From a phage, in sequence record PV806337.1: 64,000 nucleotides of DNA. One strand, 5' to 3'. The first letter of the stretch is position 1. Every line of letters starts with the position of its first letter. The position numbers and the translations under genes were made by a program. This document shows positions 8,341-45,976 of this stretch, piece by piece. The notes below the pieces were generated by a model, which worked only from the letters and a program-made list of their open reading frames with translations, was not told the origin of the DNA and made no database searches.

Positions 8341-8370
8341 CAAATTTCTTCCTTATCAATTTATATAAAT

Positions 8371-8399
8371 ATTATAGCAAGTATTTAAGCATTTAGCAA
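8371..8399 (-). promoter_or_regulatory. T5-type promoter upstream of ligB
   Basis: -35 TTGCTA and -10 TATAAT on minus strand, 17-bp spacer, then RBS AAGGAAG. Confidence 0.65.
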
Positions 8400-8542
8400 C
8401 TACAATTTTAACTAACTTTGCTTACCCTCGCCATAACTTTCTATCCCTCAACTGAATGATAATAGTATATACCTAAGCGGCGAAAATGTCAATAACCACT
8501 TTATAATTCCGATATGGTAGATGGGTAGCAAAGGGTTATGTA

Positions 8543-29012: not shown

Positions 29013-29291
29013 ATGAGAATTTATAACTCAAATTCATTAGGATTTAAACCGTTGAGAAAACGTGCACAATCACCTCGTCAAATAAGAAAGGCTAATATTG
29101 GTGAGCCAGAAACACGTCTTCCACCTCCTCCGGAACAACGTTTAGTTTATCTGGATGAAGAATTAGCTGAACGCGAAAGAAAAGCTCAAGAAGAGATTGA
29201 GCGTAAGAAAATGTGTACTGCTCCAGCATATAATAAAGGAGCGTATCAATATGTTTCCGATGCAGAACAAGCCAAGATGGTTGGTAGATAA
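29013..29291 (+). CDS. hypothetical protein (92 aa)
   Basis: Track ORF with T5-type promoter and RBS GAGGAGGG. Confidence 0.55.
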   Translation: MRIYNSNSLGFKPLRKRAQSPRQIRKANIGEPETRLPPPPEQRLVYLDEELAERERKAQEEIERKKMCTAPAYNKGAYQYVSDAEQAKMVGR

Positions 29292-29307
29292 TTTTTAAAA
29301 AATTCAT

Positions 29308-29336
29308 TTGCTAAACGCTTCAAATTCTCGTATAAT
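29308..29336 (+). promoter_or_regulatory. T5-type promoter
   Basis: AAAAATTCATTTGCTAAACGCTTCAAATTCTCGTATAAT; -35 TTGCTA, 17 bp, -10 TATAAT. Confidence 0.75.
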
Positions 29337-29374
29337 ATACTTCATAAATTGATAAACAAAAAGGAAAATAAATA

Positions 29375-29890
29375 ATGGCTAAGCAGAAAAACGCAAAAAC
29401 TCAAGCAGCCCCGGCAGTTAAAACTTTCCCTCAGACTGAGGCTAACCGCAAAGCTCGTCTGGAACGCCACCTGCGCAAGCACCCTACTGATGCTCAAGCT
29501 GCACAGGCACTGAATCGTCCGGCTCCGATTCGTCAAAAGCCGAAGGCTAAGAATACCACTCGTTCTGTAGTCCGCCTTGTGACCTATGTACAGGGTTATG
29601 GTCACAAATCTGTTCCAGTAGCACTGAGTTTCAATGCTGGAGCAGAATTGTTCCCTCGTAATGGCATGGCCATGAAAGATTACGAGAAAGCAGTTAACCA
29701 GAAACGCAAACCAACGGCAGATGTATTGCGTGATACTCGTGGACAGTTTGGTTCTGTTAAGCCAAATATCTTCGGTGTAGAGTATAGCAAAGATAATGTT
29801 CGTGCTCTATGTTACGGTGTAGGCATTAAGTTCACGGGTGATTCTGCTCGTAAATCTGCTAAACCAGCTCGTAAACGTAAAGCGAAGTAA
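29375..29890 (+). CDS. hypothetical basic protein (171 aa)
   Basis: Lys/Arg-rich; own promoter; RBS AAAGGAAAA. Confidence 0.55.
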   Translation: MAKQKNAKTQAAPAVKTFPQTEANRKARLERHLRKHPTDAQAAQALNRPAPIRQKPKAKNTTRSVVRLVTYVQGYGHKSVPVALSFNAGAELFPRNGMAMKDYEKAVNQKRKPTADVLRDTRGQFGSVKPNIFGVEYSKDNVRALCYGVGIKFTGDSARKSAKPARKRKAK

Positions 29891-29899
29891 TAGATAAAT

Positions 29900-29915
29900 A
29901 GGGGCAGAAGCCCCT
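29900..29915 (+). other. GC-rich GNRA-tetraloop hairpin (intergenic RNA element)
   Basis: AGGGGC-AGAA-GCCCCT immediately after stop of 29375-29890; no T-run. Confidence 0.5.
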
Positions 29916-29954
29916 ACAATCTACTAATTCTCTAACTAATCAAGGATATTTTTT

Positions 29955-30170
29955 ATGTTCTCTAAGAAACCACGTTCCGTTACTGAAATCGTTGCTTCCT
30001 TTACCACTATCACTGATGAGCTTCAAGCTCGTATTGAGGCTGATCAAAAAATTGCGGCGGATATTCAGAAACAGCAGGAAGAACTCGCTTTAAAGTTGGC
30101 TGAAACCAACAAGAGTGAAAAATCTGCCCAAACTATTATGGAAAATATCCTTAAACTGCTGGGCAAGTGA
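29955..30170 (+). CDS. hypothetical protein (71 aa), coiled-coil-like
   Basis: Track ORF with RBS AAGGA. Confidence 0.5.
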   Translation: MFSKKPRSVTEIVASFTTITDELQARIEADQKIAADIQKQQEELALKLAETNKSEKSAQTIMENILKLLGK

Positions 30171-30178
30171 TTTAAATC

Positions 30179-30196
30179 AGGGGGCGAAAGCCCCTC
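30179..30196 (+). other. GC-rich GNRA-tetraloop hairpin (intergenic RNA element)
   Basis: AGGGGGC-GAAA-GCCCCT after stop of 29955-30170; near-identical to hairpin at 29900. Confidence 0.5.
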
Positions 30197-30211
30197 TTAT
30201 TTGGAGAAACT

Positions 30212-30448
30212 ATGCGTAATTTTGTAGCAAAGAATGATTTTAACCGTGCTAGCACTCATAAGTCCGCTAGAGATTATACACGACTTTCTAGTCATGAGGT
30301 AATGGACACCTGTTATGAAGAGCTGGAAGGTAGCTGGAATGAATGGCCCGACTTCTCTATGGAAGAGAACTGGGATGTCAGTGAGGATATGCTTCCTGGC
30401 TTTAAAGACCCCAAGAAGTGGGAGTCTATTAAAGAGCTGTCTCTTTAA
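30212..30448 (+). CDS. hypothetical acidic protein (78 aa)
   Basis: Track ORF with RBS GGAG. Confidence 0.5.
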   Translation: MRNFVAKNDFNRASTHKSARDYTRLSSHEVMDTCYEELEGSWNEWPDFSMEENWDVSEDMLPGFKDPKKWESIKELSL

Positions 30449-30476
30449 TAGTTTTCTACACAATAAAGGATAAGTT

Positions 30477-31178
30477 ATGAAAGTAAAACCATTTGGTATG
30501 CTAGATATTGAATCTCTGGGAACTCCAGGAGATTGTGGTACTACTCATATCGCAATGCCTTCTTTCGCTTTTGTGGCTATGCATGGAATTGATAAAGACC
30601 CTGATCTAATATTTGTTACTTTGGATGTACAAGATCAGCTTAATTCTGGTGCCAAAGTTACAGCATCTACTCTAGCATTCTGGATGGATCAAGCTAAAAA
30701 TAGCCCGTCTGCTATCCACATTATGGAAGCTATGAAGGAACGTAATCCAAAACTGATTGCCTTCCAAAATGGTAAACATCATTGCACTAATAAACTCGGC
30801 TCTAACTATGCTGCCTACTCTATGGCTAAAAATATTATGGAGTTGGCTTTAGGCGAAAATGCTTTGTATTATGGAAACGGTCCAGAGTTTGATATGACTA
30901 TCTACTCTGCAAACACGTTCCATGCTGGAACCAATGAAGAGGTAGTTCCGTGGAAATTCTGGAATTTGGGTAATGTTCGATCTCTTCGTAACCTCTGGAT
31001 GCAGGCTGGATACAGTTATAAAGCTCTAGAGACCGAAGGTATTAGCTGGGCAATAGCTAAAATGGAGAAGATGGACACCATTCGTTATGGGATCTATCCG
31101 GTTAAGCACGACCCAGCATTTGATGCCTTAGTTGAGAGCTATTGTGTTGCAGCTATGATCGAAAAAATGAAAATTTGA
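30477..31178 (+). CDS. DEDDh-family 3'-5' exonuclease-like protein
   Basis: Exo I-like MLDIESLG and Exo III-like HDPAFDALVE. Confidence 0.6.
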   Translation: MKVKPFGMLDIESLGTPGDCGTTHIAMPSFAFVAMHGIDKDPDLIFVTLDVQDQLNSGAKVTASTLAFWMDQAKNSPSAIHIMEAMKERNPKLIAFQNGKHHCTNKLGSNYAAYSMAKNIMELALGENALYYGNGPEFDMTIYSANTFHAGTNEEVVPWKFWNLGNVRSLRNLWMQAGYSYKALETEGISWAIAKMEKMDTIRYGIYPVKHDPAFDALVESYCVAAMIEKMKI

Positions 31179-31179
31179 T

Positions 31180-31208
31180 TTGCTTCCGGCTCCAAAATTC
31201 TGTATAAT
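31180..31208 (+). promoter_or_regulatory. T5-type promoter
   Basis: -35 TTGCTT, 17 bp, -10 TATAAT upstream of 31249. Confidence 0.7.
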
Positions 31209-31248
31209 ATATTCATAAATTTGAGAAAACAATAAAAGGAAAACAAAT

Positions 31249-31431
31249 ATGCCAGTATCTAAAAATGTTCGTAAAAATGGTAAGAAAGCTACTCGTAATC
31301 TGGGTATCCGTCGTATGGCTGAACGTCAATCAGGTATCCAGAAAATCTTTGATCTGCTAAATCGTGCTAATCCTAAAATTGATAACAGTAACGATACTGT
31401 TCTGCGCACTCTGCTGGCAATTGGTCTGTAA
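31249..31431 (+). CDS. hypothetical small basic protein (60 aa)
   Basis: Track ORF with own promoter. Confidence 0.5.
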   Translation: MPVSKNVRKNGKKATRNLGIRRMAERQSGIQKIFDLLNRANPKIDNSNDTVLRTLLAIGL

Positions 31432-31484
31432 TAGACCAACTTTAAACAAATTCAAATCTCAAACTTCATATAAGGAAGCAAATA

Positions 31485-32123
31485 ATGACTACTCGTATCT
31501 CTAAAACTCGCGCTCTGGCAACTATCAAATCTCTGGAAGCTAAAATCCGTAAAGCTACTGAACAACAGCTTCTGATCGCTGTTGGTGAAGGTAAGGATAA
31601 AAATAAGGTTGTAGTTGGCGCTGCAATCGAAGTAGATGATTTATCTGAGCGTATTAAGACAGATTTCCAGTCCCTGCTGGATATGATGTCCCAGCGTGAT
31701 CGTATCAAAGCTGCTCTGATTAAGAGCAATGCAGAAACGATCGTTGAGATAGGCTCTCGTAAAATGACTGTTGCGGAAGCAATTGAAGCTAAGCGTTCTA
31801 TGGAACTTAAAGCCCAACTGCTGGCTAACATGCGTAAGCAGTTCCATGCCGCCACGGTTAAGTTTAATACGCAGAAAGCACAGTTTGATGCTAAATATGA
31901 GCGTTTGCAGGATAGCATGGCTACCCGTGATAAGAAAACTTCCGAAGATGAAGTTAAAATGCAGCTCAACCTGCTGGAACTCAAGAATACTCCATTCTTG
32001 ATTGATCCGCTGGAACTGGAGAAGCTGATTAAGCAGCATGACGAGGAATACCAGGACTTTGCAACAAATGTTGATTTTGTTCTGTCCGAGTCTAACGCCT
32101 CTACCTTCATTGAAGTAGAGTAA
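31485..32123 (+). CDS. hypothetical protein (212 aa), coiled-coil-rich
   Basis: Track ORF with RBS AAGGAAG; antisense track ORFs look spurious. Confidence 0.6.
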   Translation: MTTRISKTRALATIKSLEAKIRKATEQQLLIAVGEGKDKNKVVVGAAIEVDDLSERIKTDFQSLLDMMSQRDRIKAALIKSNAETIVEIGSRKMTVAEAIEAKRSMELKAQLLANMRKQFHAATVKFNTQKAQFDAKYERLQDSMATRDKKTSEDEVKMQLNLLELKNTPFLIDPLELEKLIKQHDEEYQDFATNVDFVLSESNASTFIEVE

Positions 32124-32506
32124 TAATTTAAAAGCTAGTAAATCGGTAGACGAAAGCCCAAGCATCTTACCTCGCAGCAGCGGTTGAAATACGAGGTTAA
32201 ATAAGACCGCTGACCATACTATAAAGTATAATCTATTGGAGATTATGTTTATTACACCAGCCTTTTAAGCTGACACGTAAGAACAAAGCGTCGTTGATAT
32301 TACCGACACAACTTCAAAGATCAACATTTAAGTATGAAAGCTGAAAAGTTTAAAGAACTCAAACTTCTAAACTTCTAAAGCTAAAAGATGCAAAGTATTC
32401 GTTGATGATTCAAACCCTAGATCAAAGGTACATGGCTCATAAGATATGGCCTGTGGCGCCTCTAGGCTGTTTATCGGTTTACTAGTTTCACAATTTAAAA
32501 ATGTAT

Positions 32507-32535
32507 TTGCTAATTTACTAAGTTATCTGTATAAT
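32507..32535 (+). promoter_or_regulatory. T5-type promoter
   Basis: -35 TTGCTA, 17 bp, -10 TATAAT upstream of 32566. Confidence 0.7.
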
Positions 32536-32565
32536 ATATTTTTAAATTGATGAAACGAGGCTATT

Positions 32566-32883
32566 ATGACTTTTCATATTTTGATTGATGATGTGCGTAA
32601 TCTTCACGGAATGGATATTATCATTCGAACCCCAGAAGCCGCTGTAGAGTTTCTGAATAAAACTGATACCACCGGCCATTTCGTTTATATGGATAATGAC
32701 TTGGCTGTAGATGGTATGGAAGGTTATCAAATTCTTCGTTTACTCTTAGAATTTGGGCAGAGACCAAAGAAAGTGGTACTAGTAACCTCGAACCCAGTAG
32801 CTAAGCAAAATATGCGTAATGATTTGCTTGACTTAGGGTATAAAGAAAATCCCAATCGTGTTGAATATGATTGGCAGGAGTAA
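32566..32883 (+). CDS. hypothetical protein (105 aa), possibly receiver-like fold
   Basis: Track ORF with own promoter; acidic residues ILIDDV...MDNDL; weak. Confidence 0.5.
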   Translation: MTFHILIDDVRNLHGMDIIIRTPEAAVEFLNKTDTTGHFVYMDNDLAVDGMEGYQILRLLLEFGQRPKKVVLVTSNPVAKQNMRNDLLDLGYKENPNRVEYDWQE

Positions 32884-32888
32884 AAAGA

Positions 32889-33338
32889 ATGAAGGCAGCT
32901 TTGCTTTTAGTAGCTGCCCTTACCTTCAGCTTTAGTAGTCAGGCATCGCACGATGCAAAAGAAATAGATTGCATTGCTAAAAATATCTATTTCGAAAGTC
33001 GTGGTGAGGGCATAAAGGGAATGACGGCGATTGCACATGTTACTAAAAACCGTGTAAACTCCGGTAAATTCCCAGATTCCTACTGTAAAGTAGTATATCA
33101 GTCTAACCAGTTCTCTTGGGTATCTAAGAGACCAAAAGTTGATAAAACTGATGAGGCTTGGCAAACCGCTAAGAATTTAGCTAGAGTGATATACTACGTT
33201 GATTTACCACAAGATCCTACATATGGAGCACTATACTTCCATAGTGGTAAAGATAAACCTTACTGGACAAAGAAGTTTAAGAAAACAACTAAGATTAAGG
33301 GACATACATTCTATAAACCTGTTGTCACTAAAACTTAA
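32889..33338 (+). CDS. secreted cell-wall hydrolase, SleB/CwlJ-like
   Basis: Signal peptide MKAALLLVAALTFSFSSQA; block NIYFESRGEGIKGMTAIAHVTKNR typical of SleB-type hydrolases. Confidence 0.6.
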   Translation: MKAALLLVAALTFSFSSQASHDAKEIDCIAKNIYFESRGEGIKGMTAIAHVTKNRVNSGKFPDSYCKVVYQSNQFSWVSKRPKVDKTDEAWQTAKNLARVIYYVDLPQDPTYGALYFHSGKDKPYWTKKFKKTTKIKGHTFYKPVVTKT

Positions 33339-33346
33339 AAATTTAC

Positions 33347-33375
33347 TTGCTTAGCTACTTAAATTTCTGTATAAT
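33347..33375 (+). promoter_or_regulatory. T5-type promoter
   Basis: -35 TTGCTT, 17 bp, -10 TATAAT upstream of small ORF 33407. Confidence 0.7.
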
Positions 33376-33406
33376 ACTTTCATAAATTAATGAGAGGAAG
33401 CGAAAT

Positions 33407-33577
33407 ATGAAATCAGTTGTAATTATTGGTGTTAACACTCGCGGTATTCGTACTACGAAAACTGTTAAAACTTCTAACGTTGCTGAAATAACTACGAACC
33501 CTAAAAAGTTTGATTTCGCCAAAGTCTCAGCAGTTATGACAGAACAATCTTTTAACCAAGCATTGGGGATGAAATAA
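33407..33577 (+). CDS. hypothetical small protein (56 aa)
   Basis: Not in track (<60 aa); T5-type promoter and RBS GAGAGGAAG upstream; stop overlaps next start. Confidence 0.4.
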   Translation: MKSVVIIGVNTRGIRTTKTVKTSNVAEITTNPKKFDFAKVSAVMTEQSFNQALGMK

Positions 33578-34011
33578 TGGGTGAAAATATTCTAATGACC
33601 CTTCGTGGACTACTTAGTCTAGCACGTACTCACGGTGATAAGGAACGGGCACTTAATCTTCAGACCATGATTGGTGATCTGCAACGTATTGATAAAGACA
33701 TTGTTACTCGAACCGAGTTCGTAGCCTATCTGAAAGCTCAGATTAAGGCTCTAGAAAATGCAAAACAACGCGCTATTAAAGTTGGTATGGAAGTTCCTAC
33801 TGATGTAGACTATGAGCAACTGCTTTATTCCATGCTGCAAGAGTATCAGCCAAGTCAACTGACTGAGGTTCAGATTCGTGAGTATTTTGCAGAACTGGTT
33901 AAATTAAACCCAGGTATTACCAAAGCTCTATTAATGAAAACTATTAAGGCAGAATTTCCCGGACGTTATGACGGTAAAACAACTGCTTTGATTGCTAGTG
34001 AATTTTTCTAA
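33577..34011 (+). CDS. hypothetical protein (144 aa)
   Basis: Track ORF. Confidence 0.55.
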   Translation: MGENILMTLRGLLSLARTHGDKERALNLQTMIGDLQRIDKDIVTRTEFVAYLKAQIKALENAKQRAIKVGMEVPTDVDYEQLLYSMLQEYQPSQLTEVQIREYFAELVKLNPGITKALLMKTIKAEFPGRYDGKTTALIASEFF

Positions 34012-34019
34012 AAATTCAT

Positions 34020-34048
34020 TTGCTAAATGCTTATAAATTCTGTATAAT
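34020..34048 (+). promoter_or_regulatory. T5-type promoter driving an about 800-nt non-coding transcript ending in tRNA-Arg
   Basis: -35 TTGCTA, 17 bp, -10 TATAAT; no ORF with RBS until 34955. Confidence 0.7.
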
Positions 34049-34270
34049 ATATTCATAAATTAGGGAACAGCGAGCCGATTACGCTGAGTGCAGAATCCCA
34101 ACCGGAGCGCATTGAATAGAGTCGGTGGGTTAGTTGTAAAACTAGTACACAGGGGGCGGCAATCCCGGTTAGTGGCTAGAACGTGTAAAATGAGGCGTCT
34201 GAAACCTCTCCCCTAAACTCTTCTCTGATTTATAAATAGTGGGGTGTGGAAATCACTTATGTAGTAACAC

Positions 34271-34342
34271 TGCCGTCCTAGTATAATTGGTATTATCAAG
34301 CCGTAACTGGTGGAAGATGTAGGTTCGAATCCTACGGTCGGT
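34271..34342 (+). ncRNA. degenerate tRNA-like fragment (T-arm and acceptor only)
   Basis: T-arm GTAGG-TTCGAAT-CCTAC and 6/7-bp acceptor GCCGTCC/GGTCGGT, no convincing anticodon arm, no CCA. Confidence 0.3.
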
Positions 34343-34845
34343 AAGAACTGGATAACTGATGCTTTTAACATAAAAGCTTCCGAGGTTAGTTGCGCACTGC
34401 CTAAACCACGCGGTAGTTGGTTCCAGACTAACCAACCAGTCTGCTGAATAGTTTTATTACGATTTAACTATGTCCAGGCTAAAGAAGAACTTTAGAAGGT
34501 ATTCTAGGATAGTGAAGTTCTTTCTCCATATCGGAGTAGTTTTTCAAGCTATCCACAAAGTGGGAAATGCTGACATGAGAGATGTCACTAATGGTGCACA
34601 ATAGCACAGGTAATTCGCGATAACTCCTGTTGAGTAGCAGCAAAAGGTGGGAAGTCATGACCCCAAGCCTAACCGAGTCCTCAATATACCGCAGGACATA
34701 ACCACTAAGTCACCCTGACTTAAACTGGAAAATAATAGACGTTACTGTATTTTGTCTTGAAATACTTAATGAGTGAGACTTATGACTCTCCCGGTATCGT
34801 CTGTATTTTTAAGAGTTTTTACGAGAGTTCTTAAAAATACTTAAA

Positions 34846-34920
34846 CGGGGTGTAGTCTAAGGGAGAGGCAGGAGTCTTCTAAATTCCTTTATGCAGGTTC
34901 GAATCCTGTCACCTCGGCCA
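34846..34920 (+). tRNA. tRNA-Arg (anticodon TCT)
   Basis: Acceptor CGGGGTG/CACCTCG, anticodon stem GGAGT/ATTCC with loop CTTCTAA, T-arm GCAGG-TTCGAAT-CCTGT, encoded CCA. Confidence 0.8.
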
Positions 34921-34954
34921 ATTTTATTAACTGTAACTAAAACAAAGGAAATAT

Positions 34955-35902
34955 ATGTTTGCTACTAAAAATATGAAAGAACTGACTTCTGAGCAGAAAG
35001 TAATTCGTACTATTAAACGTTGGGGTATTGGTGCTGTAGTTGGTTTAGCAGGTTTAATCCTAGCTTTTAATTCATATACTATTGTTTCTGATGGTACGGT
35101 TAAAACCCAAACATTCCTGGGTAAAGTAGACCCTAATCCAGTATTGCCGGGCTTCCATCTTGTAAACCCGTTTGCATCTTTCGATACTTTTAGTACAAAA
35201 GATATTGCTGTAAAATTAGATAAACTTCAGGTTCCTAGCCAGGATAAGTTTAAATCCACTGTTGACCTGACTGTTATGTTGCAGTTTGATGGTTCTAAAG
35301 CACCGATTAACCGTATTAACGCAGGTACTCAGGATCAGGCACTAGACAAGTATGTAACTGAAAAATTACTGTCTACTATTCGTGAGTTTGGTAAGTCTGT
35401 ACCTAAAGCACAAGATTTATTTGATGCTAAAATTCAGGCTCAATTGCAAACTGCAATTCAACAGGAAGTTGAAGAGTATGCGCGCCCATATGGTTACACA
35501 GTTAAGCAGGTATTCCTTCAGGATATTACCTTGCCGCCAGTAATCATGGAACAGGTACAGAATACCAAAGTTCGTGAAGAGCAAGTTAATGCTGCGAAAG
35601 CTGAACTTGCTCGCGTTGAACAGGAAGCACAGCAAAAAGTTAAACAAGCAGAAGCAGATCGTGAAGCTCGTAACAACCAAGCTATTGCTAATGAACGTGA
35701 CGCAGATGCTAAACTGTACGCAGCTAAGAAAGAAGCTGAAGCTAACGCCGCATTGCAACGTACCATTACTCCTGAAATGATTCGTTGGAAACAACTGGAA
35801 GTTGAAATGATCCGTGCTCAGAAGTATCAAGGTGGTGTACCTCAGACTGTGGTAGGTACTGGCTACGATGGTCAAATGATCATGGATATGCGTAACAAGT
35901 AA
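34955..35902 (+). CDS. SPFH/band-7 (stomatin/prohibitin-like) membrane protein
   Basis: N-terminal TM (WGIGAVVGLAGLILAF), SPFH-like core, long Ala/Glu/Gln coiled coil. Confidence 0.65.
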   Translation: MFATKNMKELTSEQKVIRTIKRWGIGAVVGLAGLILAFNSYTIVSDGTVKTQTFLGKVDPNPVLPGFHLVNPFASFDTFSTKDIAVKLDKLQVPSQDKFKSTVDLTVMLQFDGSKAPINRINAGTQDQALDKYVTEKLLSTIREFGKSVPKAQDLFDAKIQAQLQTAIQQEVEEYARPYGYTVKQVFLQDITLPPVIMEQVQNTKVREEQVNAAKAELARVEQEAQQKVKQAEADREARNNQAIANERDADAKLYAAKKEAEANAALQRTITPEMIRWKQLEVEMIRAQKYQGGVPQTVVGTGYDGQMIMDMRNK

Positions 35903-35925
35903 TAGTTACACGTAATCTTCGAACC

Positions 35926-35960
35926 AAGCCCGCGTTTCCTACGAGAGCGCGGGCTTTTCT
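35926..35960 (+). terminator. rho-independent terminator after SPFH gene
   Basis: AAGCCCGCG ... CGCGGGCTT followed by TTTCTGTATTT. Confidence 0.7.
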
Positions 35961-35970
35961 GTATTTAAGG

Positions 35971-36015
35971 CAAAAGAAAAAGCCCCTTACCTTTCGGCAG
36001 GGGCTTTTGTTTTTG
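35971..36015. terminator. bidirectional terminator between convergent units
   Basis: AGCCCCT-TACCTTTCGGC-AGGGGCT flanked by A-run upstream and T-run downstream. Confidence 0.65.
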
Positions 36016-36221
36016 GTTTAGAACCATACTCTCGGTGTACAGCAACCACCCATACGGGAGGCCAATCTTGACTGAAAATCTACTCTAGGGGGCAGGATAA
36101 GAGTAGGCTTAAAGGCAAAGGGATTGAACGCCGGTATTTGCGTAAACATTGCTGGAGAGCAACAACGTGCTACAGGCACTGGGCAGCACGAAACAGATTT
36201 TCTGCAACACATATTTCCTCC

Positions 36222-36638
36222 TTAGGAGTTACTACCCCCATTTTGAGCTTTTGCAACTTGGCTTTGGCAGAAGCTATTAAACTTACCCATAAGTGATACA
36301 AGCTGTTTCCCATCCTCTGTCTTTGCGAAGTCTTCGAAAAGGGCTAGTACTGCCTGTCCTTCCGCAGAAACCTGCGGTTGTTGGGTTTGTTGCTGAACTT
36401 GCTGCTGAGGCACCTGTTGCTGCATTTGTTGAGGCATTTGCGACTGCCCGCTCATTTGCTGCATCATTTGCATAGGACTCACACTTCCAGGGTTTTGCTG
36501 GAGTTGTTGCTGCATCTGTTGCGCTTCTGCTAAACGCTGTTGCAACTGTTGTAAGTAGGGGTTATCCAGACCCGGAATGGGCTGCTGGGAGCCCATACTT
36601 TGATTAAGTCCGTTATTTACAAAACCATATTTACTCAT
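36222..36638 (-). CDS. Gln-rich low-complexity protein (138 aa)
   Basis: Track ORF; extreme Q/M/P composition (QQMQQQLQQ...). Confidence 0.5.
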   Translation of the reverse strand: MSKYGFVNNGLNQSMGSQQPIPGLDNPYLQQLQQRLAEAQQMQQQLQQNPGSVSPMQMMQQMSGQSQMPQQMQQQVPQQQVQQQTQQPQVSAEGQAVLALFEDFAKTEDGKQLVSLMGKFNSFCQSQVAKAQNGGSNS

Positions 36639-36659
36639 AATGGGCTCCTCCCCTTAATA

Positions 36660-37649
36660 TTAAGCCGGCAGTTTAGCCTGCAGACCAGCCAGAGTCTGAG
36701 TGATAGCACCAAGACTTAAAGCGATTTGATTAATTACCTGACCGTTAGCACCGCTACCCGCAGCGATTGCTTCACGTAGGCGACATGCGTCTAACTCATC
36801 CTGGATACGCGCAGTAGTTACACCAGCGATCGCAGTCTGAAGTTCACAGCAACATTCAGCGATCTGACGTTCCAGAGAGTTCTGGTTAGCACACATCTGA
36901 GCCTGAACAGCGGCAAACTGGTTATTAGTTTGTAAAGTCTGCTGGAAAGCGATCTGTGCAGAATCAAACTTATCTTGTGCACGAGCTATCTGGTTAGCTG
37001 CGAAAGATTGATCAATCTGGCGAGAAAGATCGAACTGACCCTGAATAACGTTGCGAGTTTCCTGGCAGATCTGATTAGACAGATTAGCACCTGTACCGTA
37101 GATCGTAGTTAGTACAGACTGAGTATCACGGCTCTGGTTTTGGGTTGTCTGGCTAAAACCATTGTTAACTGCGCTTAAAACAGCTCCAGTACCCTGGTTA
37201 GCCTCTGTACGAGTAGTGTTGATAGCTGCTAGAATACTAGCGGTATCTTGGTTCTGAAGTACTGCATCAACTGCGGTACCTTCACCAACTACACCACGTC
37301 CACCGAATCCACCGAAACCACCGAATCCGCCGGTTAATAGAGCACCGATTAGGATAGCTCCGAATAGTCCCATACCTTCACCACCGAAAGCACCTGCGTT
37401 TGCTGGGTAACCACCCAGTAGGCCAGGGAAGCCACTAGTGAATACGTTTACTGGTTCTTGCATTTTATGTTTTCCATATTTATGACAATGTTCATCATCG
37501 TCATCTTCTTCTTCATCATCGTGTTCACGATGTTTTTCTTCGTAGGCTCTGACCTTCTCCCACTTTTTCTTATCTGATTCCTCGTGACGGTGCAGTTCTG
37601 CTGCAACGCTAGCGACGGTCTCAGGACTCTTAGCTACTTCTTCTGTCAT
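36660..37649 (-). CDS. membrane protein with His/acidic N-terminus, Gly-rich TM and Q/N/T-rich C-terminus
   Basis: Likely start M21 of track ORF with RBS AGGAGGTG; HREHDDEEEDDDDEH block; GALLTGGFGGFGGFGG; own sigma70-like promoter. Confidence 0.55.
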   Translation of the reverse strand: MTEEVAKSPETVASVAAELHRHEESDKKKWEKVRAYEEKHREHDDEEEDDDDEHCHKYGKHKMQEPVNVFTSGFPGLLGGYPANAGAFGGEGMGLFGAILIGALLTGGFGGFGGFGGRGVVGEGTAVDAVLQNQDTASILAAINTTRTEANQGTGAVLSAVNNGFSQTTQNQSRDTQSVLTTIYGTGANLSNQICQETRNVIQGQFDLSRQIDQSFAANQIARAQDKFDSAQIAFQQTLQTNNQFAAVQAQMCANQNSLERQIAECCCELQTAIAGVTTARIQDELDACRLREAIAAGSGANGQVINQIALSLGAITQTLAGLQAKLPA

Positions 37650-37711
37650 ATTTTGACACCTCCTAGTATATAGAAAATGTGTGTCTCTTTGATCACTCAT
37701 CCATAACATAT

Positions 37712-37740
37712 ACTTTACACTACCCCAGCGAAAATGTCAA
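37712..37740 (-). promoter_or_regulatory. sigma70-like promoter for antisense island gene
   Basis: -35 TTGACA, 17 bp, -10 TAAAGT on minus strand; lacks the T5 early promoter downstream box. Confidence 0.5.
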
Positions 37741-37856
37741 GGGGTCTTTAAAAATTGCCCCCGGATTTTTAGTGGGGTCACAAATTTTGGTCCTCCCCAC
37801 TTATCTGCTACCCTTAAGTGCCCTATGATTTTCCTCTAAAAAGTTAAAAAATTTGA

Positions 37857-37885
37857 TTGCTTGAATGCTAAATTCTCTGTATAAT
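37857..37885 (+). promoter_or_regulatory. T5-type promoter for Toprim gene
   Basis: -35 TTGCTT, 17 bp, -10 TATAAT. Confidence 0.7.
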
Positions 37886-37915
37886 ATATCTATAAATTTG
37901 AGAGAGGAACCAAAT

Positions 37916-38434
37916 ATGAATGTTGATGAGCTAACACAGCACCTCTTATCCAGAGGATTTGATACAGATAAATATCATTGCTGGTTAAGTCCGGAAGGAT
38001 GGCTAACAGTCCCGTTGTATGACTTCTCCGGGATGTTGCGAGGCTATCAGACGTATAATCCTTCTGCTCCAAAAGGTCATGGTAAGTGTCCCTTTGAAGC
38101 TAAATATTTTACTTATTCTACTACCCAGTGTGTATGGGGACTAGAAACTCTCAATGGAGATGAAAAAGTAGTATTGATCGCTGAATCTGTATTTAAGGCA
38201 GTTGCGCTACATAACGCTGGTTATCCAGCCCTGGCAATGTTAGGTTCTTCTCCAGGAAAAGCGTTATTAAAGCAACTGAAATTATTACCTTTTAAATTGG
38301 TAGCTGTCGGAGACAACGATCCTGCGGGTGAAAAATTTGCTAGAAAATTAAACGGCTTTGTTTCTCCCGTAGATGTGGATGAGATGTCTACCGAAAACTT
38401 GAAAAATTTTCTTGCTATGAAGCTAAATTTCTAA
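37916..38434 (+). CDS. Toprim-domain protein (possible RNase M5-like/primase-like nuclease)
   Basis: Toprim Glu (VVLIAESVFKAV) and DxD (AVGDNDPAGEKFARKL); likely start M18 of track ORF. Confidence 0.6.
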   Translation: MNVDELTQHLLSRGFDTDKYHCWLSPEGWLTVPLYDFSGMLRGYQTYNPSAPKGHGKCPFEAKYFTYSTTQCVWGLETLNGDEKVVLIAESVFKAVALHNAGYPALAMLGSSPGKALLKQLKLLPFKLVAVGDNDPAGEKFARKLNGFVSPVDVDEMSTENLKNFLAMKLNF

Positions 38435-38440
38435 TATAAT
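38412..38440 (+). promoter_or_regulatory. T5-type promoter directly upstream of tRNA-Ser
   Basis: -35 TTGCTA, 17 bp, -10 TATAAT; tRNA starts about 16 nt after -10. Confidence 0.65.
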
Positions 38441-38455
38441 ATATCTTATAAATTC

Positions 38456-38544
38456 GGAAGAATAGCATAACGGTATTGCAGCAGATTGCTAATCTGTCGG
38501 TTTGAAATATAGCCTTGTGGGTTCGATTCCCACTTCTTCCGCCA
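38456..38544 (+). tRNA. tRNA-Ser (anticodon GCT), long variable arm
   Basis: Acceptor GGAAGAA/TTCTTCC, anticodon loop TTGCTAA, T-arm GTGGG-TTCGATT-CCCAC, CCA; T5-type promoter directly upstream. Confidence 0.8.
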
Positions 38545-38550
38545 AATTCT

Positions 38551-38628
38551 GGTTCTCAAGCTCATATGGTATGAGCACCCGGCTCATAACCGGAAGGTAC
38601 GTAGGTTCGAATCCTCGGGGAGCCACCA
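38551..38628 (+). tRNA. tRNA with CAT anticodon (Met/fMet/Ile2), non-canonical T-stem
   Basis: Acceptor GGTTCTC/GGGAGCC with G-U pairs; anticodon loop CTCATAA; T-loop TTCGAAT with bulged stem; CCA. Confidence 0.55.
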
Positions 38629-39592: not shown

Positions 39593-39622
39593 CTCCTCCA
39601 AACAGAATTTTTAAAAATGTAC

Positions 39623-39652
39623 TTGCCTTTTGCTTTAAATTTCTGATATAAT
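39623..39652 (+). promoter_or_regulatory. T5-type promoter
   Basis: -35 TTGCCT, 18 bp, -10 TATAAT upstream of 39683. Confidence 0.6.
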
Positions 39653-39682
39653 AGTTATATAAATTGATGAAGGAGTTAACTA

Positions 39683-41456: not shown

Positions 41457-41558
41457 AATTCTGTGTAGAGTTAAGTAAACCGGTAGCCAACCAGCTATCA
41501 TTGCTGACATCGAATTCAGCCATAGATACCATTTTCGTTAATAACTGAGGAAACAAGC

Positions 41559-42457: not shown

Positions 42458-42579
42458 CAAAATTTCAGTGCAGAACACGGAGCTAGCAATTCGGAAGTGC
42501 TGACTCATGATAAGCTGCCTATGTACTTGCGAAGCGGTCGTGTCCAAGACTCGGACTCTTGCACTGAAAACAATCAAAC

Positions 42580-42700
42580 ATTCTAGCGTGGTTGATGGGG
42601 AAACCAGCTTGGCGAGGGCAGAAGCTCGTTCGATTCGAGTGAAAGAATGGTTCTCGTAAGTCCGCACAAGTGATAACAGGTTCGAGTCCTGTCTAGAATG
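42580..42700 (+). ncRNA. tRNA-like element about 121 nt, tRNA ends with expanded internal region
   Basis: Perfect 7-bp acceptor ATTCTAG/CTAGAAT, D-arm-like TGGTT-GATGGGGA-AACCA, 3' T-arm ACAGG-TTCGAGT-CCTGT, internal second T-arm-like CTCG-TTCGATT-CGAG; no CCA. Confidence 0.4.
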
Positions 42701-42711
42701 ACACTATAAAG

Positions 42712-42833
42712 TTTACTTATTATGTAGGTTCCGATAGACCGGCGGGTCTATTCTGGCATTTAAGAGAGGTCTCGCAAACTTCTTTGTCAGCCGTGGGGTT
42801 GGTAGCCTCCAGGTGGCCTACACAATAAGTAAA
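42712..42833 (+). ncRNA. structured non-coding element closed by a 17-bp long-range stem
   Basis: TTTACTTATTATGTAGG pairs with CCTACACAATAAGTAAA 105 nt downstream (16/17); internal hairpins AGACC-GGCG-GGTCT; no ORF. Confidence 0.4.
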
Positions 42834-43424: not shown

Positions 43425-43503
43425 AGATCGCTAGCTCAATAGGTTTAGTAGCATCCGACTTTTAATCGGAAGGTTCTGGGTTCGAGTCCCAGGCGATCTA
43501 CCA
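43425..43503 (+). tRNA. tRNA-Lys (anticodon TTT)
   Basis: Acceptor AGATCGC/GCGATCT, anticodon stem TCCGA/TCGGA with loop CTTTTAA, T-arm CTGGG-TTCGAGT-CCCAG, CCA. Confidence 0.8.
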
Positions 43504-43521
43504 ATTTCAAGAAAAACGCAG

Positions 43522-43550
43522 TTGCTTGATGCTTAATTTCTTGTTATAAT
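43522..43550 (+). promoter_or_regulatory. T5-type promoter driving a structured leader and tRNAs
   Basis: -35 TTGCTT, 17 bp, -10 TATAAT; followed by GAAA-tetraloop hairpin 43564-43583. Confidence 0.65.
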
Positions 43551-43563
43551 ATTTATATAAATT

Positions 43564-43583
43564 GATGAGGAGAAATCCTCATC
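43564..43583 (+). other. GAAA-tetraloop hairpin at 5' end of a promoter-driven transcript
   Basis: GATGAGGA-GAAA-TCCTCATC, about 14 nt downstream of -10 TATAAT. Confidence 0.5.
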
Positions 43584-43787
43584 ATAGTTCACTAAGGTAT
43601 TAGCTCGACCTAGGACTGGCTACCAAAAAGCACGATCCCTACGATTTGGAGAAGTTCTAGATTAGTCCACTAGATTCAGCGGCAACTGAATAGTGTATTG
43701 GGTTTGCGAGATGACGCAGTTCCTTCCGCTCGAAGCGAAGGTGCTGTAGTTACGCCGAGCTAATAGCCTTAGTAAACTAAAGAATTT

Positions 43788-43866
43788 GGGGGATGGGTCT
43801 GCTAGGGGTGGACACCTCACTTGCACCGAGGACATCAGAACGATTCGAATTCGTTATCCTCCACCA
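43788..43866 (+). tRNA. tRNA, probable Ala (anticodon TGC)
   Basis: Acceptor GGGGGAT/ATCCTCC, D-arm GTCT...GGAC, loop CTTGCAC, T-arm AACGA-TTCGAAT-TCGTT, CCA. Confidence 0.6.
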
Positions 43867-43948: not shown

Positions 43949-44073
43949 AATTTGATGGTCAGAGTAAATTAAACCTACTATCTCGGTTGAGCTGTTTTAA
44001 TGGGTTCGAATCCCAGCGAGGCGTAACTGCCTGGTGTGATAGAGGCATCATTCCACTAACATTGGAAAAACTA

Positions 44074-44304
44074 ATGAAACGAAAATTAAAAAAGTCTTAT
44101 ATAATTAAGATAAATAAGCTACGAAGTAGGGCAAAAGGATGGCCACTTCGAATATTAATTGCGGATAACCATACTAGATACCATGCGGAACAACGTCATT
44201 ACAAACAGTGGGAGTCATACTGCCGCTCAAAAGCAGGTCGTTTAGATGGATCTTATGAGTTTCTATTTGGTAAGAAGCCTACTAGAGTAGCTTTAGGTAA
44301 TTAA
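44074..44304 (+). CDS. hypothetical small basic protein (76 aa)
   Basis: Internal ATG of track ORF 43936..44304, whose N-terminus overlaps a tRNA; weak RBS. Confidence 0.3.
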   Translation: MKRKLKKSYIIKINKLRSRAKGWPLRILIADNHTRYHAEQRHYKQWESYCRSKAGRLDGSYEFLFGKKPTRVALGN

Positions 44305-44309
44305 TACTT

Positions 44310-44400
44310 GGAAGAGCAAATCGAATTGGCGACGAAAACCGCTTGGAAAGTGGCTGACTGGTAAAACGGCTTGAGAGTTCAAATCTCTCCTCTTCCGCCA
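44310..44400 (+). tRNA. tRNA-Ser-like (probable anticodon GGA), long variable arm
   Basis: Acceptor GGAAGAG/CTCTTCC, T-arm GAGAG-TTCAAAT-CTCTC, CCA; candidate loop TTGGAAA. Confidence 0.55.
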
Positions 44401-44412
44401 AACAATTTATAT

Positions 44413-44507: not shown

Positions 44508-44512
44508 AATCT

Positions 44513-44644
44513 TGAAGTATGCCGGAATCGGTAGACGGGGCTGCCTAAAAGGTTTATAGGGAACATCCACTCCCTGCAACATACCTCATAAAGCGGCTGA
44601 GATAAATGGTCTATCTCGTGAAGGTTCAAGTCCTTCTGCTTCTT
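44513..44644 (+). ncRNA. tRNA-Leu-like element about 130 nt with extra internal sequence
   Basis: 5' TGAAGTA-TG-CCG-GAATCGGTAGA-CGG resembles type II Leu D-arm; 3' T-arm GAAGG-TTCAAGT-CCTTC; acceptor 6/7 pairs; extra hairpin GAGATA/TATCTC. Confidence 0.35.
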
Positions 44645-44873
44645 GATATATCTATGGCTCAAAGTGTAACGGTGCTATTTGATGCTCTTAGTAAGACTTT
44701 CCCGACATGCGTTCGGGAGTAAGCTGCTAAGGCTAGAGTAGAAGAGTTTCGGAGAGCCGCCACAATTGAAAATTCGTACTCGTCTTGAGCTGCGCGCAAT
44801 AGGAGATAACTTGATTAGTATTCTAGAACATGCTAATTGAGGATGGTTTCGCTAACCCTGCGAGTTTTCAATT

Positions 44874-45827: not shown

Positions 45828-45902
45828 GCTCCTAAAGCATTGCTGGCGATGCAGTTGCCTTGTAAGCATCTGAACCGGGTTCGATTCCTGGTGGGAGCAC
45901 CA
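45828..45902 (+). tRNA. tRNA-Thr (anticodon TGT)
   Basis: Acceptor GCTCCTA/TGGGAGC, D-arm GCAT..ATGC, loop CTTGTAA, T-arm CCGGG-TTCGATT-CCTGG, CCA. Confidence 0.7.
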
Positions 45903-45917
45903 AATTTAAAAATTCAT

Positions 45918-45946
45918 TTGCCTTCTCTCTTATTTCTTGTTATAAT
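45918..45946 (+). promoter_or_regulatory. T5-type promoter
   Basis: -35 TTGCCT, 17 bp, -10 TATAAT upstream of 45977. Confidence 0.7.
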
Positions 45947-45976
45947 ATTTATATAAATTAATGAGAGGGAAACCAA

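What the first reader, a model, noticed from the sequence alone, without database searches (positions are those of the whole stretch)
43584..43787. Structured about 200-nt non-coding leader between a promoter and tRNA-Ala
Downstream of promoter 43522-43550 and a GAAA-tetraloop hairpin, about 200 nt lack any ORF and show long-range complementarity (GGTATTAGCTCG near 43596 with CGAGCTAATAGCC near 43755). Together with 42712-42833 and 44645-44873 this makes a family of promoter-driven structured spacers within the tRNA array.
Basis: seen in the sequence. Interest (0 to 1): 0.5.

Follow-up and report, generated by a model that had tools for sequence, protein, structure and literature searches.

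The report
Known T5 stable RNA "RNA 2H"
The "structured leader" is the gene for RNA 2H, a ~171-nt stable non-coding RNA that GenBank records of T5-like phages already annotate with unknown function; here it proves to be a pseudoknotted fold found in several T5-family genera, apparently cut out of its transcript by RNase III.

Summary
Window 43586-43778 forms a 21-bp closing stem around a multi-helix fold (z = -4.6), downstream of a T5-type early promoter and upstream of tRNA-Ala.

It is not new. It is 96.5% identical to "RNA 2H, stable RNA with unknown functions", annotated in the BF23 and phage 5 tRNA-region records, after "promoter P13b".

This analysis adds four points:
- The annotated ends lie inside the closing stem with a 2-nt 3' overhang, as RNase III would leave. 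The mature RNA here would be 43598-43768.
- Covariation supports every helix, including a pseudoknot between the 5' junction strand and a hairpin loop.
- Homologs occur in Tequintavirus/Epseptimavirus, Sugarlandvirus, Serratia phage Slocum and Proteus phage PM135, with a candidate in a Vibrio phage. None was found in Rfam, E. coli genomes or plasmids.
- In Slocum, PM135 and one Epseptimavirus the next gene encodes a protein, so this is a separate gene, not a tRNA-Ala leader.

Function remains unknown. Viable T5 deletion mutants lack the region. My best guess is a trans-acting folded RNA with an accessory role.

The parts
43503..43576 (+). Early promoter, homolog of BF23/phage 5 'promoter P13b' (-35 TTGCTT 43524-43529; -10 TATAAT 43547-43552). 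It belongs to a repeated T5 promoter cassette ('repeat b').
   Evidence: Sequence read. 93% identical to the BF23 P13b feature. T5 annotates 'repeat b copy 3' here. Similar cassettes occur at about 10 other window sites.
43565..43584 (+). 5' leader hairpin GAUGAGGA-GAAA-UCCUCAUC. It masks the GAGGAG Shine-Dalgarno-like part of the promoter cassette. It is not a conserved part of the RNA.
   Evidence: The loop is inverted (UUUC) in metagenome contig L033. The hairpin is replaced by a ~110-nt module in phage 5, S132 and chee130. It is absent in Sugarlandvirus.
43586..43607 (+). P1, 5' strand (AGUU C ACUAAGG U AUUAGCUCG). The putative RNase III cut is between G43597 and U43598.
   Evidence: 21 pairs, 99% paired across 42 copies, 5 pairs changed on both sides between T5-type and Sugarlandvirus. 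Further versions of the stem occur in Slocum, PM135, L077 and Thalassa.
43598..43768 (+). Predicted mature RNA 2H (171 nt): 5'-UAUUAGCUCG...CGAGCUAAUAGCC-3'.
   Evidence: BLAST of the BF23 misc_RNA 'RNA 2H' (172 nt) gives 96.5% identity at 43598-43768. The same ends are annotated in BF23 and phage 5.
43613..43617 (+). Pseudoknot PK1, 5' strand (GGACU) in the junction after P1.
   Evidence: It pairs with 43664-43668. Partner sequences co-vary across lineages. Shuffle control gives combined p = 2e-4.
43618..43633 (+). Conserved A-rich linker GGCUACCAAAAA followed by GCAC (tentative 4-bp helix PK2/P2 with GUGU at 43693-43696).
   Evidence: A CCAAAA-type motif is kept in most lineages. RCAC:GUGU (T5, Sugarlandvirus, Slocum) corresponds to AUGY:GCAU (PM135, L077) and ACUC:GAGU (Thalassa). 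The helix is only 4 bp, so this remains tentative.
43634..43655 (+). Arm 1: a variable hairpin. This copy has the short version, weakened by a 1-nt deletion.
   Evidence: Relatives carry 25-nt-longer versions with a different sequence but a conserved YUUGC:GCAAR base and an inner hairpin.
43656..43674 (+). Hairpin Hx (UCUAG / 9-nt loop AUUAGUCCA / CUAGA). Loop bases 43664-43668 (AGUCC) form the 3' strand of PK1.
   Evidence: UCUAG:CUAGA becomes UCUGA:UCAGA in UTK0009 and SB13. Other versions are CGGA:UCCG in Sugarlandvirus, AUCGG:CCGAU in Slocum and GGGA:UCCC in L077.
43675..43690 (+). Hairpin P4 (UUCA / GCGGCAAC / UGAA).
   Evidence: The stem covaries: ACGC:GCGU, CUGGUG:CACCAG, GGAU:AUCC, GGGU:ACCC, CGGA:UCCG.
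43691..43705 (+). Conserved linker UAGUGUAUUGGGUUU, which includes the tentative PK2 3' strand GUGU (43693-43696).
   Evidence: Invariant or nearly invariant across 35 T5-type copies. Related sequence is present in the other lineages.
43706..43755 (+). Arm 3 / P5: a long hairpin, 'type A' sequence in this copy.
   Evidence: Two unrelated sequence types (A and B) fold alike. 8-9 pairs are changed on both sides, and the basal pair is C:G, U:A or A:U.
43756..43778 (+). P1, 3' strand (CGAGCUAAU A G CCUUAGU A AACU). The putative RNase III cut is after C43768.
   Evidence: Same evidence as for the P1 5' strand. The U.G pair next to a bulged A on this strand is kept in T5-type, Slocum, PM135, L077 and Thalassa; Sugarlandvirus has A and UG there.
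43788..43866 (+). Downstream neighbour: the 79-nt 'long' tRNA-Ala(UGC). It is not part of the RNA.
   Evidence: Sequence read. Orthologues are detected by ARAGORN and annotated as tRNA-Ala in phage 5, with a note on amber-suppressor conversion.

Best explanation
The region is the gene for RNA 2H, a discrete stable non-coding RNA of T5-like phages.

Proposed pathway, with the status of each step:
1. Host RNA polymerase transcribes it from the early promoter P13b (annotated; homology shown).
2. The 5' and 3' flanks form a 21-bp helix, P1 (shown by folding and covariation).
3. Host RNase III cuts both strands of P1 at a conserved U.G/bulged-A site. This releases a ~171-nt RNA that keeps a 10-bp terminal stem with a 2-nt 3' overhang, and it frees the downstream tRNA or mRNA (inferred from the annotated ends).
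4. The released RNA folds into a compact body (shown by covariation; one 4-bp helix is tentative). The body has two sequence-variable arms, two short hairpins, and a pseudoknot that docks the 5' junction strand into a hairpin loop. Conserved A-rich and UAGUGUA linkers connect these parts.
5. Selection acts on the shape of the whole interior, not only on the processing stem. I therefore infer that the RNA works in trans as a folded molecule, most likely by binding a host or phage protein as a scaffold or decoy. The role would be accessory (host takeover or counter-defence) and is not needed on laboratory E. coli. This last step is inference only.
For: Identity:
- 96.5% identical over 172 nt to the BF23 misc_RNA 'RNA 2H, stable RNA with unknown functions'. 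It has the same flanks: P13b upstream and tRNA-Ala downstream.
- The same annotation appears in phage 5.

Structure:
- Folding z-scores are -4.6 for the window, -6.5 for Slocum and -2.4 for both Sugarlandvirus and Thalassa.
- Across 42 copies, 96.6% of cells are paired, against 27-40% when partners are slid by 1-3 columns. 21 pairs are changed on both sides.
- Every helix has 3-7 different complementary versions across lineages.
- The pseudoknot PK1 covaries: GGACU:AGUCC, GAGCC:GGCUC, GAGUC:GACUC, GAACC:GGUUC and others. Its shuffle control gives a combined p = 2e-4.

Strand and RNA level:
- The reverse strand scores 33 bits against 241 for the forward strand.
- Conserved G.U pairs are present.

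RNase III:
- The annotated ends in two records are U...AGCC. This places the cuts opposite each other in P1 with a 2-nt 3' overhang, 11-12 bp from the base of the stem and 10 bp from its top.
- The ends are not set by the neighbouring genes. There is a 19-nt spacer before the tRNA.

Independence from tRNA-Ala:
- A protein gene follows the RNA in Slocum, PM135 and 26175I.

Dispensability:
- The viable T5 deletions T5-123 (29191-32442) and T5Mos (30661-38625), reported in PMC11464382, span the T5 copy at 31719-31912.
Against:
- The basis of the GenBank annotation ('stable RNA', exact ends) could not be traced to a readable paper.
- No nucleotide outside the helices is invariant across all lineages, which gives no handle on a binding site.
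- A gene of unknown function (phrog_7572) is often adjacent but is missing from this window, so no partner protein is indicated.
- The central region has competing pairings (CUAG repeats). The thermodynamic fold prefers a different pairing from the covariation-supported hairpin and pseudoknot.
- The Thalassa homolog rests on a 15.5-bit hit that matches only the P1 stem, plus my own manual parse.
Confidence: 0.6

Rival explanations
1. Cis-acting processing module only. The long stem exists to give RNase III an entry site that separates the promoter-proximal leader or upstream transcript from the downstream tRNA or mRNA. This would resemble the RNase III sites between T7 early genes. The excised ~170-nt piece would be a stable by-product with no function of its own.
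For: - The ends look RNase III-like.
- The next gene starts 1-20 nt after P1 in every lineage, either a tRNA or a Shine-Dalgarno sequence plus a start codon.
- The element is dispensable in the laboratory.
- The arms are freely swapped between phages.
Against: A processing site needs only P1. Yet the interior helices Hx, P4 and P5 and the pseudoknot are all kept by compensatory changes across genera. The linkers are near-invariant within genera. A passenger sequence should decay or shrink.
Confidence: 0.2
2. Cis-regulatory leader that controls transcription or translation of what follows. It would be either a riboswitch-like sensor or a put-like processive antiterminator that helps RNA polymerase read through a long untranslated tRNA array.
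For: - It lies directly after a strong promoter in T5, BF23, this window and Sugarlandvirus.
- It has a complex pseudoknotted fold of riboswitch-like size.
- Long untranslated arrays are natural targets of Rho (established knowledge).
Against: - No terminator or Shine-Dalgarno-sequestering helix follows it.
- The downstream genes differ between lineages.
- In phage 5, S132 and chee130 it is separated from the promoter by another ~110-nt module.
- No junction nucleotide is invariant across lineages.
- It is annotated as an excised stable RNA.
- There is no Rfam match for any lineage.
Confidence: 0.07
3. Base-pairing small RNA that targets a host or phage mRNA through one of its loops or linkers.
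For: Stable phage-encoded RNAs can act as antisense regulators (general knowledge). One 13-nt antisense match to window position 28764 exists.
Against: - The 13-mer match is about what chance gives (0.3 expected).
- It lies in a segment that is paired in the model.
- There is no BLAST similarity or complementarity to E. coli genomes or plasmids.
- Loop sequences are not conserved between lineages.
Confidence: 0.08
4. A DNA-level element rather than an RNA. Candidates are a miniature inverted-repeat mobile element bounded by 22-bp inverted repeats, a homing-endonuclease target, or a replication or packaging signal.
For: - It has terminal inverted repeats.
- Its neighbours differ in Slocum and PM135.
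- HNH homing endonuclease genes are common in this region.
Against: - It is single-copy in the 64-kb window and in every locus searched.
- G.U pairs and the strong strand asymmetry of the model score (241 vs 33 bits) point to RNA.
- Internal helices and the pseudoknot covary.
- It is absent from bacterial genomes apart from 2 chance 18-mers.
Confidence: 0.03

Closest known systems
RNA 2H of phages BF23 and phage 5 (GenBank NC_042564 and AJ604531, misc_RNA 'stable RNA with unknown functions')
   Same: It is the same gene: 96.5% identity, the same promoter (P13b), the same position before tRNA-Ala and the same inferred ends.
   Different: Nothing of substance differs. This copy has a 1-nt deletion in arm 1 and a G-to-A change in the A-rich linker. 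Its neighbouring tRNA-Ala is the 79-nt type, as in phage 5, not the 74-nt type of BF23 and T5.
Other annotated stable RNAs of the T5/BF23 tRNA region (RNAI, RNAIII, RNAIV; tRNA-like RNA1, RNA2, RNA3)
   Same: They share the genomic neighbourhood and the annotation 'unknown functions'. All are closed by a terminal stem.
   Different: There is no sequence or structure similarity to RNA 2H. They are shorter (74-144 nt). RNAI and RNA3 end in CCA like tRNAs. They lie within tRNA arrays without a promoter of their own, and RNAIII and RNA3 directly abut tRNAs. RNA 2H instead lies within a long helix with staggered ends.
Phage T4 species 1 and species 2 RNAs (rnaC, rnaD)
   Same: They are small stable RNAs of unknown function encoded at the end of a phage tRNA cluster.
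   Different: They are not homologous. The RNA 2H model gives only short-hairpin noise on the T4 locus (10 bits or less).
RNase III processing stems (T7 early-mRNA sites; rRNA precursor stems)
   Same: A stem of about two helical turns is formed by the flanks of the product. The cuts leave a 2-nt 3' overhang (the enzyme's properties are from established knowledge).
   Different: The excised piece here is a conserved pseudoknotted RNA rather than an rRNA or a simple hairpin. RNase III dependence is untested.
Orphan structured RNAs of phages found near tRNA genes (e.g. GOLLD, ROOL)
   Same: Both are complex, covariation-supported folds encoded in phage genomes near tRNAs, with unknown function (resemblance recalled from knowledge).
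   Different: RNA 2H is much smaller (~170 nt against 500-800 nt). There is no Rfam match to these or to any other family.

Membership tests
RNA 2H (T5-like phage stable RNA) | Sequence homology to the annotated RNA 2H over its full length | tested here: met
   96.5% identity, 172/172 nt aligned, window 43598-43768
RNA 2H (T5-like phage stable RNA) | Same genomic setting: promoter P13b upstream, tRNA-Ala downstream, in the tRNA gene region | tested here: met
RNA 2H (T5-like phage stable RNA) | Accumulates as a stable ~172-nt RNA in infected cells | not testable with these tools
   Known only from the wording of the GenBank annotation. No readable paper was found.
RNase III-processed RNA | Flanks form a double helix of about 20 bp or more | tested here: met
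   21 bp with one bulge and one mismatch. It is kept by 5 or more compensatory pairs across genera.
RNase III-processed RNA | Product ends staggered with a 2-nt 3' overhang | tested here: met
   The annotated ends in BF23 and phage 5 map to G|U on the 5' strand and CC| on the 3' strand. The experimental basis of those ends is unknown.
RNase III-processed RNA | Processing depends on the rnc gene | not testable with these tools
   Needs Northern blot or RACE in an rnc mutant.
tRNA / tmRNA / tRNA-like RNA | Cloverleaf or tRNA-like domain recognised by ARAGORN or the Rfam tRNA clan | tested here: not met
   No hit within 43586-43778
Riboswitch / cis-regulatory leader | Expression platform (terminator or Shine-Dalgarno-sequestering helix) coupled to the fold | tested here: not met
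   No terminator-like site follows it on the + strand. The Shine-Dalgarno sequence lies outside P1 in Slocum, PM135 and 26175I.
Riboswitch / cis-regulatory leader | Constant association with one class of downstream gene | tested here: not met
   The downstream gene is tRNA-Ala, or one of several unrelated CDSs.
Any Rfam 15 family (including 6S, Y RNA-like, tmRNA, riboswitches, GOLLD/ROOL) | Covariance-model match | tested here: not met
   No match to the element at E up to 5-10 for the four lineages scanned: the window, Sugarlandvirus, L077 (PM135-like) and Slocum, plus the phage 5 copy. PM135 itself and Thalassa were not scanned.
T4 species 1/2 RNAs | Homology in sequence and structure | tested here: not met
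   Model R2 with filters off gives no hit over rnaC or rnaD.
Miniature inverted-repeat mobile element | Multiple dispersed copies per genome | tested here: not met
   One copy in the 64-kb window and in each 40-kb locus searched

The most novel reading that the evidence does not exclude
RNA 2H is the founding member of a new class of phage-encoded, RNase III-released, pseudoknotted RNAs. It would act in trans on a host or phage protein, for example as a decoy or inhibitor of a host defence or RNA-metabolism factor. Its swappable arms would tune specificity. This would give the first function for any of the orphan 'stable RNAs' of T5 and T4 tRNA regions.
Probability: 0.3. Interest if true: 0.7.

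Novelty: already known. Interest (0 to 1): 0.4.

Why it matters
T5-like phages are model phages and common therapy candidates. Their tRNA region has recently been shown to carry counter-defence functions: phage tRNAs defeat PARIS and retron Eco7 (PMC11464382, PMC10644984). The same region also encodes seven annotated non-tRNA stable RNAs whose roles are still listed as unknown. RNA 2H is the largest of these and the most elaborately folded.

This analysis provides three things:
- a testable structural model (P1 with an RNase III site, a pseudoknot and covarying arms);
- evidence that the RNA is present in several genera of Demerecviridae;
- evidence that it is an independent gene.

These turn a bare annotation into something that can be deleted, mutated compensatorily and pulled down. 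The analysis also shows that many genome records place spurious 'hypothetical protein' calls over this RNA, and that Rfam lacks a model for it.

Tried and rejected
1. Rfam at gathering and at permissive E-values, for the window and three other lineages plus phage 5: nothing.
2. Host or plasmid origin or mimicry: no BLAST hit in 5,426 E. coli genomes or 72,556 plasmids. A bacterial-genome scan gave two 18-mer chance hits in Acidobacteria with no further similarity.
3. The thermodynamic fold of the centre (CUAGGAC:GUUCUAG and CACUA:UAGUG): the only informative variants (UTK0009, SB13) break it but compensate the alternative hairpin, and other genera support the pseudoknot. I therefore replaced it.
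4. A second loop-linker pairing (UGCC:GGCA): single uncompensated changes in the window, SB13 and L040 argue against it.
5. Klebsiella phage vB_Kpn_3 as a genuine divergent form: it is a recombinant whose P1 5' strand was replaced by a T5-type promoter cassette.
6. A palindromic P1 pattern scan of IMG/VR: 16 of the 18 new loci (L060-L071, L073-L076) were AT-rich chance matches. L072 is PM135 and L077 is a real homolog.
7. A partner protein: the adjacent gene phrog_7572 is often upstream but is absent from this window and from the T5 and BF23 loci, and it lies 2.6 kb away in PM135.
8. Antisense targets within the window: one 13-mer, at chance level.
9. Homologs next to the long tRNA-Ala in Cronobacter EspYZU15, Klebsiella KpS8, Erwinia Cronus and Aeromonas LAh_9: none.
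10. Literature on function: none found.

Full report
**What is there.** The window comes from a T5-like phage (Demerecviridae). The 2.8 kb around the finding is 97% identical to Escherichia phage Baret, Salmonella phage PMBT29 and many others.
- a T5-type early promoter, TTGCTT at 43524-43529, 17-nt spacer, TATAAT at 43547-43552;
- a GAAA-loop hairpin at 43565-43584;
- a long-range pairing of GGTATTAGCTCG (43596-43607) with CGAGCTAATAGCC (43756-43768).

That pairing is the top of a 21-bp stem, P1 (43586-43607 with 43756-43778). The stretch folds far better than shuffles: -71.5 against -50.6 +/- 4.5 kcal/mol, z = -4.64, 0 of 200 shuffles as good. No ORF in it is conserved.

**It already has a name.** Two GenBank records of phage tRNA gene regions annotate the homologous stretch as misc_RNA "RNA 2H, stable RNA with unknown functions", 172 nt long. 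The records are BF23 (NC_042564) and Salmonella phage 5 (AJ604531). In both, "promoter P13b" precedes it and tRNA-Ala follows. The BF23 feature aligns to window 43598-43768 at 96.5% identity, and P13b aligns to 43503-43576. T5 itself has the sequence but leaves it unannotated. Many newer records leave it blank or lay a "hypothetical protein" over it. I found no paper in the library that says anything about its function. It matches no Rfam 15 family, even at E = 10.

**Ends and biogenesis.** In both annotated records the RNA runs from the U of ...AAGG|UAUUAGCUCG to the CC of CGAGCUAAUAGCC|UUAG. In P1 the removed GG on the 5' strand pairs with the retained CC on the 3' strand. The two ends are therefore cuts across one helix with a 2-nt 3' overhang. 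They lie 11-12 bp from the base of the helix and 10 bp from its top. That is the product geometry of RNase III (enzyme properties from established knowledge). The ends are not set by neighbouring genes, since the tRNA starts 19 nt further on. The cut site coincides with a U.G pair next to a bulged A on the 3' strand. This feature is kept in T5-type phages, Slocum, PM135, L077 and Thalassa, while Sugarlandvirus has A and UG there. I infer this pathway: transcription from P13b, RNase III excision, and a mature RNA at window 43598-43768 (171 nt). RNase III dependence is untested.

**Structure.**
- I collected 35 distinct T5-type copies from phage records, IMG/VR and metagenomes.
- Within this group P1 and the linkers are almost invariant.
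- Arm 1 occurs in short and long versions. Arm 3 occurs in two unrelated sequence types that fold alike, with 8-9 pairs changed on both sides.
- The arms are shuffled between phages in different combinations.
- A covariance model then found full-length copies in Klebsiella Sugarlandvirus phages at 66-72 bits.
- A second model found copies in Serratia phage Slocum (71 bits), Proteus phage PM135 (35 bits) and an IMG/VR contig (52 bits). It gave a weak hit of 15.5 bits (E = 0.004, P1 stem only) between tRNA-Glu and tRNA-Ala of Vibrio phage Thalassa.
- Across 42 copies, 96.6% of cells pair, against 27-40% when partners are slid. 21 pairs change on both sides, including 5 in P1.
- Across the lineages every helix exists in 3-7 different complementary versions.

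**The centre of the fold.**
- The thermodynamic fold of the central region is not the one evolution keeps.
- The informative variants support a hairpin, Hx (43656-43674). Five bases of its 9-nt loop (AGUCC, 43664-43668) pair with the junction strand after P1 (GGACU, 43613-43617).
- This pseudoknot appears as GGACU:AGUCC, GAGCC:GGCUC, GAGUC:GACUC, GAACC:GGUUC, GAACC:GGUUU, GAACU:GGUUC and GUGCC:GGCGU.
- Junction-loop complementarity exceeds shuffles in each lineage, with a combined p = 2e-4.
- A 4-bp helix between the two conserved linkers (RCAC:GUGU, AUGY:GCAU, ACUC:GAGU) would close an inner junction, but it is too short to be sure of.
- G.U pairs, and a 241-bit against 33-bit difference between strands, place the structure on the + strand RNA.

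**Not a tRNA-Ala leader, and not a family with the other spacers.**
- RNA 2H sits before tRNA-Ala in T5-type phages, Sugarlandvirus and the Thalassa candidate.
- In Slocum, PM135 and Escherichia phage 26175I a ribosome-binding site and unrelated protein genes follow it within a few bases.
- The leader hairpin is not part of the RNA. Its loop is inverted in one contig, it is absent in Sugarlandvirus, and another ~110-nt module replaces it in phage 5, S132 and chee130.
RNAIV (42722-42824) lies upstream of promoter P13a. The second spacer is the tail of tRNA-like RNA1 plus RNAI (44656-44762) and RNAIII (44767-44872), inside a tRNA array.
- The RNA 2H model does not match them.

**What it does.**
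- This is unknown. Viable T5 mutants T5-123 (deletion 29191-32442) and T5Mos (30661-38625) remove the T5 copy at 31719-31912. The RNA is therefore dispensable on laboratory E. coli.
- The PARIS-suppressing fragment (31885-32870) reported in PMC11464382 holds only the first ~28 nt of the element, so the paper gives no sign that RNA 2H is the suppressor.
- There is no similarity to E. coli genomes, plasmids or bacterial genomes.
- There is no convincing antisense target and no constant neighbouring protein.
- The whole interior fold is maintained across genera, not just the processing stem. I therefore favour a trans-acting folded RNA that binds a protein, with an accessory role in host takeover or counter-defence.
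- A purely cis role as an RNase III processing module is the main rival. Riboswitch or antiterminator, base-pairing sRNA and DNA-level element are less likely, for the reasons given under each rival.

**Comparison and verdict.**
- The element is a member of the already annotated RNA 2H gene.
- It resembles the T4 species 1 and 2 RNAs only in setting, not in sequence or structure.
- New here are the RNase III-type reading of the ends, the covariation-backed pseudoknot model, the distribution across several Demerecviridae genera, and the independence from tRNA-Ala.
- Interest is moderate. The object is known and non-essential, but it is a well-folded orphan RNA in a model phage and is now ready for direct tests.

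Noticed in passing
window 43788-43866: The 79-nt 'long' tRNA-Ala(UGC) after RNA 2H is missed by ARAGORN and Rfam in this window. This copy has an A.C mismatch in the anticodon stem (CCUCA...CGAGG, where relatives have CCUCG). ARAGORN finds the orthologues in atrejo, UTK0009 and IME260. Phage 5 annotates its copy as convertible to an amber suppressor.
   Followed up: partly
window 41459-41531, 42579-42702, 42722-42824, 44511-44655, 44656-44762, 44767-44872: Six further non-tRNA stable RNAs annotated in BF23 are present here at 86-99% identity: RNA3, RNA2, RNAIV, RNA1, RNAI and RNAIII. All have 'unknown functions'. RNAI and RNA3 end in CCA after an acceptor-like stem. None is in Rfam at gathering score.
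   Followed up: partly
window 44314-44404: A 91-nt tRNA-Ser-like gene (GGAAGAG...CTCTTCC-GCCA, apparent anticodon GGA). It appears to correspond to BF23 tRNA-Ser2, and T5 marks its UCC-reading Ser gene as a pseudo-tRNA. Neither ARAGORN nor Rfam detected it here, and ARAGORN also misses it in BF23.
   Followed up: no
L033:~1040-1065 (metagenome contig ERZ1026903.8721), equivalent to window 43565-43584: The leader hairpin has its 4-nt loop inverted (GATGAGGA-TTTC-TCCTCATC instead of -GAAA-). This would happen if the palindromic hairpin had flipped at the DNA level.
   Followed up: no
L079:138-250 (phage 5); also L006 and L008 upstream of RNA 2H: In phage 5, S132 and chee130 a ~110-nt segment sits between promoter P13b and RNA 2H in place of the GAAA hairpin. 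It has its own long-range pairing (GAUACCAG...CUGGUAUC) and may be another small structured RNA.
   Followed up: no
L045:6765-7030 (Klebsiella phage vB_Kpn_3): This is a recombinant RNA 2H. The 3' half is T5/Epseptimavirus-like. The 5' start is 100% identical to the T5 'repeat b' promoter cassette that precedes the ligase gene, so the P1 5' strand is lost and the stem is broken. It is probably a dead copy.
   Followed up: partly
L003:17-370, L004, L007, L058:19561-19953 (-), L059:22114-22488: A ~118-130-aa protein of unknown function (phrog_7572, no Pfam domain) lies directly upstream of RNA 2H in many Epseptimavirus phages and in Serratia phage Slocum (33-35% identity). It is 2.6 kb away in PM135. 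It is absent from this window and from the T5 and BF23 loci examined.
   Followed up: partly
window 8351-8409, 29290-29362, 32492-32553, 39604-39673, 45902-45972 and others: The P13a and P13b promoters belong to a repeated cassette, with about 10 copies at 73-92% identity in the window. T5 annotates these as 'repeat b/c'. They are likely recombination points for deletions and module swaps in the tRNA region.
   Followed up: no
L058:19309-19518 (+), L005:374-695 (-), L047:325-483 (-), L049:293-481 (-): Several GenBank records annotate 'hypothetical protein' CDSs, often on the opposite strand, across the RNA 2H sequence. These are probably gene-caller artefacts.
   Followed up: no
window 43950-44075: The stretch between tRNA-Leu and the next ORF contains a T-arm-like GGGTTCGAATCCC and weak tmRNA/T-loop hits. 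It may be a tRNA remnant.
   Followed up: no
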